Positions 1 through 34,165 of a DNA stretch of 34,165 nt are shown in pieces (within the stretch, counting starts at the first letter, position 1; each line of letters starts with the position of its first letter). The notes under the pieces are model-generated. The model was not told the origin of the DNA. It worked only from the letters and a program-made list of their open reading frames with translations, and ran no database searches. The stretch is from a virus (Duplodnaviria; Caudoviricetes): IMG/VR virus record IMGVR_UViG_3300031811_000003, positions 1-34,165 of that record. One strand, 5' to 3'. The position numbers were made by a program, and so were the translations under genes.

Positions 1-147
1 CCCCGCCTCGCCGAAGTTCGATTTTGTCTCTTCATAAAACCTTGCCTTGCCTTGCCCTGCCTTGCCGGGCCCCGCCTCGCCCCGCCCCGCCGTAGTTCGT
101 TTTTGTCTCTTCATAAAACCTTGCCTTGCCTGGCCCTGCCCGGCCAC
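1..147. repeat. Terminal direct repeat, left copy (circular assembly overlap)
   Basis: 1-147 matches 34019-34165 except at positions 14 and 21 (a in the left copy, t in the right). Confidence 0.9.
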
Positions 148-328
148 GCCGCGCCCAGCCGCAGTTCGTTTTTGTGTCTTGAAAAAACCTTGCCTTGCCC
201 AGCCGAGCCCGGCCCCGCCCCGCCACGCCACGCCGCAGTTCGTTTTTGTATCTTGAAAAAACCTTGCCTTGCCTCGCATCGCCACGCCTCGCCAAGCCGC
301 GCCAAGCCTCGCCCGGCCACGACAAGAC
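1..328 (-). ncRNA. Array of GGC-NN pentamer units separated by 29-bp AT-rich linkers; putative guide-RNA array of the adjacent RAMP/Cas7-like gene
   Basis: On the plus strand, NNGCC tracts lie at 42-91 (10 pentamers), 121-160 (8), 190-234 (9) and 264-318 (11, one GCA variant, plus 2 degenerate to 328). Linkers lie at 13-41, 92-120, 161-189 and 235-263. The repeat is seen directly; the RNA function is inferred. Confidence 0.75.
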
Positions 329-333
329 ATCAT

Positions 334-945
334 TCACGCCACGCGGTAGCGGCCAAACCCGCCTCCACATTGAGGACGGTAATCGCCAATACCAACTATC
401 CTGCCAGCAAGTCCCAAGGCGTCTCGCACGTGGGATTCATTTAGTATCGACGTGTCGATTTCCAATGAAAGATTGACGTGCCAGTCTTCAAACTTTGGGC
501 GACACCTTAGAACCCTGGCCTTGCCGACAACCACAGGACGCTTATCTATCGTGTACTTGGTTAGAGGCTTTCCTTTCGAGTCCACTAGAATCGAGTACGG
601 CTCAGTCATAAATACAGAACCCTTGGTAGCCGTGGTAGCGGTAAGTTTCCCAAACTTCTTTCCCGTTACAGCCCTGACCATCGATTTCAGAAAACCTTCG
701 GTAGGATGATAGAAGTTCCCCTCATCATCCCTGTAGAGTCTCAATCGCGCCTCCTCCTCGTCGTCGTATTTTTTCTTGCCGCTACTCAGATCGGCCTCTT
801 GATCGACTCCGATGAAGTTGGTCGGGTTGTTATGCAACAGCGGGGTCATCCCAACTACGCGGAAAGTAAATATCTCCGGTTTCATTGTTGCCGGCGCGTT
901 AAGCGATAATGCGTCAGCGATTCGATTGGTTTCCGTTAATTTCAT
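334..945 (-). CDS. Stand-alone RAMP/Cas7-like RNA-binding protein (~203 aa)
   Basis: N-terminal strand FRVVGMTPLLH, then YHPTEGFLKSM (resembles the RAMP P.s.lKG motif) and a C-terminal Gly-rich loop GIGDYRPQCGGGFGRY. SD AGGAGA precedes ATG 945; the longer ORF start at 981 lies inside the pentamer repeat. Confidence 0.75.
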   Translation of the reverse strand: MKLTETNRIADALSLNAPATMKPEIFTFRVVGMTPLLHNNPTNFIGVDQEADLSSGKKKYDDEEEARLRLYRDDEGNFYHPTEGFLKSMVRAVTGKKFGKLTATTATKGSVFMTEPYSILVDSKGKPLTKYTIDKRPVVVGKARVLRCRPKFEDWHVNLSLEIDTSILNESHVRDALGLAGRIVGIGDYRPQCGGGFGRYRVA

Positions 946-962
946 AATGTTCTCCTGAAATA

Positions 963-1034
963 AAGTGTAAAACCTTGCCATGCCCTGCCCGGCCCGGCCA
1001 TGCCCCGCCTTGCCCGGCCCCGCCGCGCCACGCT
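963..1034 (-). repeat. Single GGC-NN pentamer unit in the leader of the RAMP gene
   Basis: 11 NNGCC pentamers at 975-1029 plus one degenerate (acgct); on the minus strand it ends in GGCAAGGTTTTACACTT, like the unit at 33969-34030. Confidence 0.9.
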
Positions 1035-32517: not shown

Positions 32518-33253
32518 TCGTTAGATACTCCTTGGCCGCAGCGAACGTGCCGAGTGGGTCTGCTATACCGTTGCTTTCGCTGGCGTCCCACGTGGCTGGG
32601 TCATCGTCATAGTGACCGTCACGCAACCACCTCAGAATCCCCCATGCATATTTCGACCGGCCCTTTGCAGAAGCCTGATACTCGCAAAGCCGAGCAAGTA
32701 GATATTCGTGCGGATCGCCAGCGATTGCATCGCCAACGGAATCGACAGCTTGCTCGTATCGTTTCCGGCACCCTGCTTTTCCCTGCTTTGAATCTACAGC
32801 GAGCCAGAACGCATCGAAACCTGATGCCGCCTCTTGTCTCTCTTGTCTCTTCTGTCTTCTGTCTTCAGTCTTCAGTCTTCTGTCTTCAGCAGACAAGCTA
32901 GCTTCTAGCTCTAGCTTTGCTCTAGCTTTGCTAAGTCCGCCTTTGCGTCCTGCTGCCGCCATCCTAGTCGACCTATCTCGCACTTGTTTTCTAATGTTTT
33001 CGAGCCGACTGTTGCGAAGTACTCCGTCGACAATTTCAAATTTACAAGAGATTTCATGCCAGTCTTCGGCGAATTGTTCGTCGGGAATCCCGATCATTCT
33101 GGCCAACTTTTCTGGCTCAAAAGGTAGCTCGGCTTGCGTCCACTCATAGCAAAGCAGAAGCAAAAAGGTAGCTTTGCTAGAGTGGGAAAGGCCAGCCGTG
33201 CCTACCAGCCAATCAGCTGGGTAAAATTGAAAGCTGGGTGGTGCTTTTGCCAT
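32507..33253 (-). CDS. Replication initiator with a DUF1376/YdaU-like N-terminus
   Basis: PSFQFYPADWL..G.L.N.RL..AGRKGG; C-terminal FDAFW..KQGK..WLRDGHYDD; SD GGAGG before ATG 33253. Confidence 0.82.
   Translation of the reverse strand: MAKAPPSFQFYPADWLVGTAGLSHSSKATFLLLLCYEWTQAELPFEPEKLARMIGIPDEQFAEDWHEISCKFEIVDGVLRNSRLENIRKQVRDRSTRMAAAGRKGGLSKARAKLELEASLSAEDRRLKTEDRRQKRQERQEAASGFDAFWLAVDSKQGKAGCRKRYEQAVDSVGDAIAGDPHEYLLARLCEYQASAKGRSKYAWGILRWLRDGHYDDDPATWDASESNGIADPLGTFAAAKEYLTNGE
32831..32932. repeat. Iteron-like short repeats inside the initiator gene (candidate origin)
   Basis: CTCTTGTCT x2 (32831-32848), WGTCTTC x5 (32853-32887), GCTCTAGCTTT x2 (32908-32929). Confidence 0.65.
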
Positions 33254-33287: not shown

Positions 33288-33947
33288 CTAAACAACAGAA
33301 GGCACACCATCAAGAAGCTCGCGTAACTTTATCAGCCGTTCAACCAACCGCTCATCAGAGAGGTCTATCAGCTCAGACTCAATAAGCTCAATCAATTGAT
33401 TGACATAAAACACTTGGCGCATACCAGACAGGTTCTCATTGGCTTTTTGTTGTCGCTTCGTTAATTTCATGCCCGCCTTGTGCTGTATGGTTCTCTTGAG
33501 CGGTATAGTCAAATTGCCCATTTTTGCAGTGCGTCCTGACAGAAGCCTCGTTGCCTTTTCTATTGGTATACGCAACACACCAGCCACTGAATCGGCGGGT
33601 ATCCCCAGCCGCTCAGCCACAATGAGGCAGTGTGTCCTATCGCAGGTGTCTAGCTTTGCGCCGTGACTTGCGTTGAATTTTATTGCATCTAAGAACATAT
33701 CAGCCTCTGTCTGGTATACCTTTTCTATGACAGCGATTTCAGCGTCAGCACCAAATACCTTGATCGTTGCTTTGACGCGATGGACACCATCGACGACCCG
33801 CTTGCTTTTCTTGTCAGCAATGACAGGAGGCAGCTCGCCCCCTTCAGCAATAACATCAGACAATGCGCGGACGTTGTGCGAGTCAACATTGTTTCGAGGG
33901 TACAGATCAAAATCTAGAATCAACTCCGCTGCCTTCATCTTCCTCAT
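33288..33947 (-). CDS. ParB/Sulfiredoxin-like N-terminal domain protein
   Basis: LYPR, LPPVIAD..VVDGVHRVKA, NASHG..L, followed by an HTH-like segment; SD AAAGGA. Confidence 0.8.
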   Translation of the reverse strand: MRKMKAAELILDFDLYPRNNVDSHNVRALSDVIAEGGELPPVIADKKSKRVVDGVHRVKATIKVFGADAEIAVIEKVYQTEADMFLDAIKFNASHGAKLDTCDRTHCLIVAERLGIPADSVAGVLRIPIEKATRLLSGRTAKMGNLTIPLKRTIQHKAGMKLTKRQQKANENLSGMRQVFYVNQLIELIESELIDLSDERLVERLIKLRELLDGVPSVV

Positions 33948-33968: not shown

Positions 33969-34165
33969 AAGTGTAAAACCTTGCCTTGCCTTGCCGAGCC
34001 CGGCCGCGCCGCGCCACGCCCCGCCTCGCCGTAGTTCGTTTTTGTCTCTTCATAAAACCTTGCCTTGCCTTGCCCTGCCTTGCCGGGCCCCGCCTCGCCC
34101 CGCCCCGCCGTAGTTCGTTTTTGTCTCTTCATAAAACCTTGCCTTGCCTGGCCCTGCCCGGCCAC
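33969..34165 (-). ncRNA. Distal part of the GGC-NN unit array (continues across the junction into 1-328)
   Basis: 10 NNGCC pentamers at 33981-34030, linker at 34031-34059, then copies of the units seen at 42-147. Confidence 0.75.
34019..34165. repeat. Terminal direct repeat, right copy
   Basis: Matches 1-147 with 2 mismatches. Confidence 0.9.

What the first reader, a model, noticed from the sequence alone, without database searches (positions are those of the whole stretch)
42..318. Decoded dinucleotide strings: each unit differs and all end in AA then GGTTT
NN read 5'->3' on the minus strand. 1029-975: GC GG CG AA GG AT CG CG AG AT AA. 318-264: CG GA TT GC TT GA GT GA GA AA AA. 234-190: GT GT GG GG CG TC TG AA AA. 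160-121: TG GC GT CG AG CA AA AA. 91-42: GG GG GA GG CC AA AG AA AA AA. 34030-33981: GA GG GT GC GC CG TC AA AA AA. The GGC is almost invariant while NN varies freely, which slippage in a neutral microsatellite would not produce. The 5' pentamers tend to be GN and the 3' ones are fixed AA, suggesting a variable specificity segment and a constant 3' handle (inference).
Basis: partly seen in the sequence, partly recalled or inferred. Interest (0 to 1): 0.82.

Follow-up and report, generated by a model that had tools for sequence, protein, structure and literature searches.

The report
Phage VIPR guide array, ParB-like partner
These five-letter repeats are six different guide units of a VIPR system, a recently described CRISPR-ancestral gene silencer, sitting beside its Cas7-like gene in a bacterial virus; they likely steer that protein to rival viruses' DNA, and a neighbouring ParB-fold gene might add a DNA clamp, but no target was found.

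Summary
Six GGC-NN tracts (8-11 units; 58 of 59 triplets GGC) lie on the minus strand of a circular 34-kb tailed phage, one before and five after a 203-aa gene. That gene is a Vipr: its family profile hits PDB 36PP 'SUSP1 Vipr protein' (E 1e-13), the GGY-binding residues are kept, and the model folds like Csm3/Cas7. Added here: in a related strain 18 of 19 listed repeat-tract differences fall on NN; the last two units are a clade-wide constant AA-AA end (18 and 17 of 21 tracts); clade NN composition fits codon positions 1-2, indirect support for wobble skipping (not significant for this window alone). The downstream gene is ParB/KorB-fold with an invariant GxxR motif and sits beside vipr in 11 of 14 viral loci; the VIPR papers' text does not name ParB, but I could not see their type figures. 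No target exceeded chance. The scan noted a VIPR plus ParB-like locus before on other DNA (e1-5358369). Verdict: new member of a known kind.

The parts
975..1029 (-). Guide tract g1 (11 GGC-NN units), upstream of vipr; terminal GGTTT at 974-970 runs into the vipr ribosome-binding region
334..945 (-). vipr gene, 203 aa RAMP/Cas7-like protein (open frame extends to an upstream ATG at 981; the database call is 203 aa)
264..318 (-). Guide tract g2 (11 units, one TGC)
235..263 (-). Constant end GGTTT plus 24-nt linker after g2
190..234 (-). Guide tract g3 (9 units)
161..189 (-). Constant end plus linker after g3
121..160 (-). Guide tract g4 (8 units)
92..120 (-). Constant end plus linker after g4
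42..91 (-). Guide tract g5 (10 units)
13..41 (-). Constant end plus linker after g5 (clean copy at 34031-34059)
33981..34030 (-). Guide tract g6 (10 units), last of the downstream array across the circular join; its end runs into the start of the ParB-like gene
33288..33947 (-). Candidate vap gene: 219 aa ParB/KorB-fold N-terminal domain with DGxHR (GxxR) motif, helix-turn-helix, helical C-terminus
34019..34165 (.). Terminal overlap duplicating positions 1-147 (circular assembly)

Best explanation
This is a phage-encoded VIPR locus: six distinct GGC-NN tracts flank a Vipr (ancestral RAMP) gene, and each tract is likely transcribed as a guide RNA on which Vipr is predicted to polymerise one subunit per five bases, so that the NN pairs would read double-stranded DNA two bases at a time with every third base skipped and likely silence genes of competing phages or satellites. 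Shown here: the tracts, their hypervariable NN, the constant AA-AA-GGTTT end, Vipr homology and fold, and a conserved ParB-fold neighbour. Taken from published work on SUSP1 and a Pseudomonas fulva prophage: RNA binding, the 1-base skip, silencing. Inferred: the last two AA units are scaffold (or a fixed T-T requirement in the target), leaving 6-10 programmable units (12-20 read bases); the ParB-like protein is this clade's accessory (vap) and strengthens repression.
For: Family profile of the 203-aa protein hits PDB 36pp_D 'SUSP1 Vipr protein', E 1.2e-13, next hit E 0.075; pairwise 29% identity over 162 columns to SUSP1 ALH47069.1, E 1e-13. SUSP1 residues R138, D177, W178, R179, which contact GGY (10.64898/2026.04.26.720927), align to R161, D200, Y201, R202; R161, D200, R202 are invariant and Y201 at least 90% conserved in 105 homologs. 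AlphaFold model (pLDDT 85) has Csm3/Cas7-type RAMPs as its top Foldseek matches. Layout (one tract upstream, array downstream, two genes, phage genome) matches the published one. In a contig of run X5, 18 of 19 listed differences inside repeat tracts are at NN and the other turns the one TGC into GGC (binomial P 8e-7; 24 of 27 differences were listed). NN composition of 21-22 clade tracts fits sense codon positions 1-2 best of six registers (LLR +14.4, 0 of 5000 shuffles; +13.7, 0 of 2000 with another codon reference), as do 5 held-out tracts (+7.4) and 8 SUSP1-type control tracts (+10.0). No self-target: best 1-skip match in the window 16 of 22.
Against: No target was found above chance in IMG/VR, JGI metagenomes or 401 genomes of a candidate host phylum. 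The codon-register signal is absent for the window's own 47 NN (LLR -0.3, 318 of 2000 shuffles), and the shuffle would be beaten by any cause of G-rich first positions. g4 has 8 units, just under the published 9-16. The linkers do not fold better than shuffles (z -0.5 to +0.8), unlike the structured SUSP1 tail. Expression, RNA binding and silencing were not tested.
Confidence: 0.93

Rival explanations
1. The system is VIPR, but the ParB-fold partner changes the output: the guide-bound Vipr filament loads or stalls an NTP-dependent sliding clamp (KorB-like), spreading repression over a kilobase scale instead of only blocking locally.
For: Best Foldseek match of the partner's model is the KorB-KorA-DNA complex 8QA9 (E 1.6e-5), then Noc and ParB; VIA-align Z 10.7 to KorB 8QA8 and pNOB8-like ParB-N 5K5D. 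D53, G54, H56, R57 are invariant in 115 homologs; GxxR is the nucleotide-binding P motif (PMC12704722 passages). KorB silences at up to 1.5 kb as a clamp locked by KorA (PMC11790492 abstract). Gene sits beside vipr in 11 of 14 viral loci. SUSP1 needs its own, unrelated vap1 for protection.
Against: A shared fold shows no function; nucleotide specificity and clamp behaviour cannot be predicted from sequence. No ParA or parS was identified, no KorB-type C-terminal dimerisation domain was tested, and nothing here shows clamp closure. The protein could simply be a DNA-binding co-repressor or autoregulator.
Confidence: 0.2
2. The tracts are neutral or slippage-driven minisatellites next to a RAMP-like gene, with no targeting role in this phage.
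For: No target found; GC-rich pentamer repeats can slip; no RNA evidence.
Against: Substitutions between strains concentrate on NN while GGC is kept (18 of 19); the same layout and 3' end recur beside vipr in distant loci with unrelated NN strings; the neighbour is a Vipr homolog with intact RNA-binding residues.
Confidence: 0.03
3. The tracts encode a low-complexity peptide (an open frame runs 370-32 on the minus strand).
For: ORF of 112 codons listed.
Against: Period is 5, unit lengths are 69, 74 and 79-84 nt, variation follows the 5-base and not the 3-base register; g1 and g6 lie outside that frame; tract numbers and positions differ among relatives.
Confidence: 0.02

Closest known systems
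VIPR systems (Vipr + vrRNA + vap), type II exemplars Escherichia phage SUSP1 and Pseudomonas fulva prophage; bioRxiv 10.64898/2026.04.26.720920, .720927, 10.64898/2026.10.15.759431; PDB 36PP
   Same: Homologous Vipr with conserved thumb arginine and G-loop; GGY/NN tracts with hypervariable NN; one tract upstream and an array downstream; two-gene phage locus; no self-target.
   Different: Only 29% identical to SUSP1 Vipr; GGC rather than mostly GGT; last two units fixed as AA; 24-nt weakly structured linker instead of a ~40-nt pseudoknot tail; accessory gene is ParB/KorB-fold and shows no alignment to SUSP1 vap1. Which of the seven published types this is could not be settled (type figures and data files not visible).
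Class 1 CRISPR Cas7/Csm3 backbones
   Same: RAMP fold; filament on a guide RNA (published).
   Different: No CRISPR repeats, cas1/2 or other cas genes among the 50 ORFs scanned; specificity is in dinucleotides of a 5-base repeat, not a contiguous spacer.
KorB/ParB CTPase clamps (RK2 KorB-KorA, PMC11790492)
   Same: ParB-N fold with GxxR followed by a helix-turn-helix.
   Different: 12-17% identity; encoded inside a VIPR locus, with no ParA or KorA partner identified; clamp and NTPase activity untested.

Membership tests
VIPR system | vipr gene: stand-alone RAMP homolog with RRM core, thumb and G-loop | tested here: met
   Profile hit to PDB 36pp SUSP1 Vipr E 1.2e-13; BLASTP E 1e-13; RAMP fold; R161, D200, R202 invariant
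VIPR system | Flanking tracts of alternating GGY and hypervariable NN, about 9-16 units | tested here: met
   Six tracts of 8-11 units, all different; strain differences at NN
VIPR system | Minimal vipr + vap locus, no CRISPR array or other cas genes, mostly viral | tested here: met
   Complete head, tail and replication modules of a tailed phage; no cas hits among 50 ORFs; ParB-like neighbour conserved
VIPR system | Invariant 3' tail after the repeat tract | tested here: met
   AA-AA-GGTTT end and near-identical 24-nt linkers; stable structure not supported
VIPR system | Targets follow the 1-base skip rule, mostly at codon wobble positions, in competing mobile elements | tested here: inconclusive
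   No target above chance; clade-level NN composition fits codon positions 1-2 but window alone does not
VIPR system | Tracts are expressed as small RNAs bound by Vipr and repress transcription | not testable with these tools
   Needs small-RNA sequencing, pull-down and reporter assays
VIPR type II (SUSP1/P. fulva) | vap1 accessory gene and pseudoknot tail | tested here: not met
   No alignment between the ParB-like protein and SUSP1 ALH47068.1; different tail
VIPR types I, III-VII | Type-specific Vipr clade, vap gene and array layout | not testable with these tools
   Type figures and data files not visible; 'ParB' has 0 occurrences in the three papers' text and the supplement PDF text
ParB/KorB CTPase clamp | ParB-N fold with GxxR P motif plus HTH | tested here: met
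ParB/KorB CTPase clamp | CTP binding and hydrolysis, clamp closure, sliding from a loading site | not testable with these tools
   Not predictable from sequence per PMC12704722 passages

The most novel reading that the evidence does not exclude
A widespread VIPR branch in which the RNA-guided Vipr filament replaces parS/KorA: it loads or locks a ParB/KorB-type NTP-dependent clamp at any programmed site and so silences rival phage genes over long range, with the fixed AA-AA units acting as a built-in nucleation handle. This would be an RNA-guided sliding-clamp repressor, not named in the VIPR papers' text.
Probability: 0.18. Interest if true: 0.72.

Novelty: new member of a known kind. Interest (0 to 1): 0.33.

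Why it matters
Its value is as a compact, clean representative of a branch distant from the two studied systems (at least 120 homologs at 53-96% identity), with a ParB/KorB-fold accessory and a fixed 3' end. It makes two open points directly testable: what non-type-II accessory proteins do, and whether the 3'-most units pair with DNA. Strain pairs with swapped NN strings also bear on how guides are rewritten, which the sections I read did not explain.

Tried and rejected
Target searches, 1-base skip. g1, 20 bases exact: 0 in IMG/VR; 1 in JGI metagenomes (L030, 21 of 22 bases, antisense to an alcohol-dehydrogenase-like gene, skip on codon position 2, about what chance gives), rejected. g1 halves of 14 bases: 122 and 120 loci from scans stopped at 44 and 22 of 64 parts; extension to the other 8 bases followed the binomial expectation, best 19 of 22. 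g2, 16 bases: 12 hits, none matches the next three units. g6, 16 bases: 8 hits, one extends one unit, none both. 401 genomes of the phylum of G001: g1 with 1 mismatch 3 hits (2 distinct, very GC-rich host DNA, 19-20 of 22; control 0), g2 0 hits (control 1). g3, g4 and g5 were not searched in the large collections; spacings 0, 2 and 3 were tested only in the window. Guides against 368 fetched proteins and against 24 vipr loci plus the window: no better than shuffled guides. The window's tail motif had 0 hits in IMG/VR. Vipr with the ParB-like protein in complex prediction: no answer, no evidence either way. No RNA holder listed among 24 runs. Rfam: 0 matches. Linker folding no better than shuffles. 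Promoter scan: 2 weak sites against 0.8 expected. Pfam and PADLOC give no family for Vipr; Pfam ParBc_2 is matched by only 4 of 115 partner homologs and PDB sequence search gave nothing under E 0.1. Close Vipr relatives were not found in GTDB genomes (9 of 401 genomes have distant matches), so the host is unassigned. The 38 shared longest-contig lengths between 119 Vipr and 120 partner hits are only a proxy for linkage.

Full report
Observation. The minus strand carries six tracts of GGC-NN pentamers: g1 1029-975, g2 318-264, g3 234-190, g4 160-121, g5 91-42 and g6 34030-33981. 58 of 59 triplets are GGC; 6 of 6 tracts end in AA followed by GGTTT. The longest GGY-NN run in 200 first-order Markov simulations of the window was 4 units against 12 seen. 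The first and last 147 bases are the same sequence with 2 mismatches, so the contig is circular and the order is g1, gene A (945-334), g2-g5, g6, gene B (33947-33288). Contigs of runs X1 (possibly the source) and X2 reproduce 170-989 and 201-354 without differences.

Setting. A PHROG scan of 50 ORFs shows a complete tailed phage (terminase, portal, head, tail, recombination and replication genes) and no cas gene. The host is unassigned; the only named close relatives are labelled Planctomycetes, and only distant Vipr matches were found in 9 of 401 genomes of that phylum.

Gene A is Vipr. It has no Pfam family but 152 homologs were returned, the 120 listed at 53-96% identity. A profile of 105 of them hits PDB 36pp_D, 'SUSP1 Vipr protein', at E 1.2e-13; tblastn of gene A finds phage SUSP1 itself among 135 records, and the pairwise identity is 29% over 162 columns. 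SUSP1 R138, D177, W178 and R179, which hold the GGY bases, align with R161, D200, Y201 and R202 (numbering of the 215-codon frame); three are invariant and Y201 is at least 90% conserved. The model (pLDDT 85) matches Csm3/Cas7-type RAMPs at TM about 0.4-0.5; that library ends in April 2026 and listed no Vipr chain.

What is published. bioRxiv 10.64898/2026.04.26.720920 (whole text read; figures not seen; supplement PDF searched by term; data files not held) defines VIPR: a Vipr protein plus RNAs of 9-16 GGY/NN units whose NN pair with DNA with one base skipped, usually the codon wobble, repressing competing phages. 10.64898/2026.04.26.720927 (parts 1-2 of 6) shows one subunit per unit and assembly from the 3' end. 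10.64898/2026.10.15.759431 (parts 1-2 of 8 and passages) shows that SUSP1 needs both vipr and vap1 against its satellite. 10.64898/2026.10.21.760802 (passages) recovers 99 VIPR-like clusters.

NN is the variable part. One contig of run X5 covers 182-353 with 27 differences, 24 of them listed; 19 lie in repeat tracts, 18 at NN and one restoring GGC at the single TGC (binomial P 8e-7 at 0.4). A contig of X11 gives 8 of 8 listed in-tract differences at NN; X4, X5 and X11 are one sample, depth is under 5, and the units laid may be paralogous. In X4 the vipr gene differs by 25 of 329 and 28 of 361 bases. So guides are replaced while the scaffold and protein stay close.

Constant 3' end. In 21 tracts from the window, L002, L003 and L031 (my parser missed one degenerate L003 tract), AA is the last NN in 18 and the second last in 17, against 12 of 172 at four or more units from the end. 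SUSP1 tracts do not end this way. I infer that these two units are scaffold or impose a fixed T-T requirement; this leaves 6-10 programmable units per guide. The 24-nt linkers can form a weak U-A stem but fold no better than shuffles.

Indirect test of the skip rule. With the last two units dropped, 193 NN fit codon positions 1-2 of the coding strand best among six registers (LLR +14.4; 0 of 5000 letter shuffles). With a codon reference from related loci: +13.7 for 203 NN, +7.4 for 38 held-out NN and +10.0 for 86 SUSP1-type control NN, each 0 of 2000; TA, the start of two stop codons, occurs once in 203. Against this: the window's own 47 NN give -0.3 (318 of 2000), and any cause of G-rich first positions would also pass. 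It is support for the clade, not proof for this phage.

Targets. None was found above chance; details are under Tried and rejected. There is no self-target (best 16 of 22), as reported for other VIPRs.

Gene B. It has weak PHROG ParB-like hits and 238 homologs, the 120 listed at 56-96%. D53, G54, H56 and R57 are invariant in 115 sequences. The model (pLDDT 93.5) matches KorB, Noc and ParB by Foldseek (best 8QA9, E 1.6e-5) and KorB, pNOB8-like ParB-N and PadC at Z 10.6-10.7. It lies beside vipr in 11 of 14 IMG/VR loci (L031 was found with gene B as query; L003/L004 and L006/L007 give identical matches), in 0 of 2 SUSP1-type loci, 0 of 2 GTDB loci and 1 of 9 short phylum-sample loci. It does not align with SUSP1 vap1. 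'ParB' occurs 0 times in the text of the three VIPR papers and in the supplement PDF text, and no 2026 paper in the library holds VIPR, ParB and RNA-guided together; but the papers list six vap families, some called DNA-binding or nuclease, in figures I could not see, so it may already be one of them. [quoted passage not shown] A clamp role is therefore a hypothesis only.

Earlier notes. The scan holds one similar finding on another genome, a VIPR with CGC-type guides and a ParB-like gene (e1-5358369); I had reached the VIPR and ParB reading before that call, and L032 shows such a locus. Look-ups by place, by sequence and by a second word set returned nothing.

Verdict. A genuine VIPR system, outside type II, type unassigned. 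It works like SUSP1 VIPR (0.93) and meets every sequence-testable defining feature except a demonstrated target. New member of a known kind; interest 0.33. The boldest open reading, an RNA-guided ParB/KorB-type clamp, has probability about 0.18 and would deserve about 0.72.

Noticed in passing
window 1-34165: Whole contig is a circularly assembled tailed phage with the annotated genes on the minus strand (terminase, portal, protease, major head, tail, RecE/Erf-like recombination, RusA, SNF2 helicase, DNA methylase); no integrase among the 50 ORFs scanned. The only named close hits are labelled Planctomycetes (P0078, 62% to Vipr; P0293, 52% to terminase), a weak host hint; the best-holding runs are marine metagenomes.
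   Followed up: partly
window 974-946 and 33980-33948: The two tracts that directly precede a gene (g1, g6) share a different 12-base end from the internal units and run straight into the ribosome-binding site, so guide and mRNA may be one transcript, allowing Vipr to regulate its own and the partner's translation. Similar T-rich ends precede genes in L002, L003, L005 and L031.
   Followed up: no
L002 2779-2878: A tract of 19 GGC-NN units, longer than the published 9-16 range.
   Followed up: no
L003 2798-5011: At least nine tracts in three clusters around vipr and the ParB-like gene, ending in AA-AA-GGTGT.
   Followed up: partly
L032 (G298:C35), L013, L029: Vipr loci whose units use xGC (CGC, TGC, AGC) instead of GGY; L032 also has the ParB-like gene (40% identity).
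   Followed up: partly
window 32831-32932: Short tandem repeats (7-, 9- and 11-base periods) inside the DUF1376 replication-protein gene, possibly origin iterons.
   Followed up: no
window 14 and 21: The two mismatches in the terminal overlap break the linker consensus, so they are probably contig-end errors.
   Followed up: yes
runs X1, X2, X3, X6: Many short contigs with other NN strings align to the tracts at 80-90% identity, so further VIPR guides of this kind occur in the same samples.
   Followed up: no
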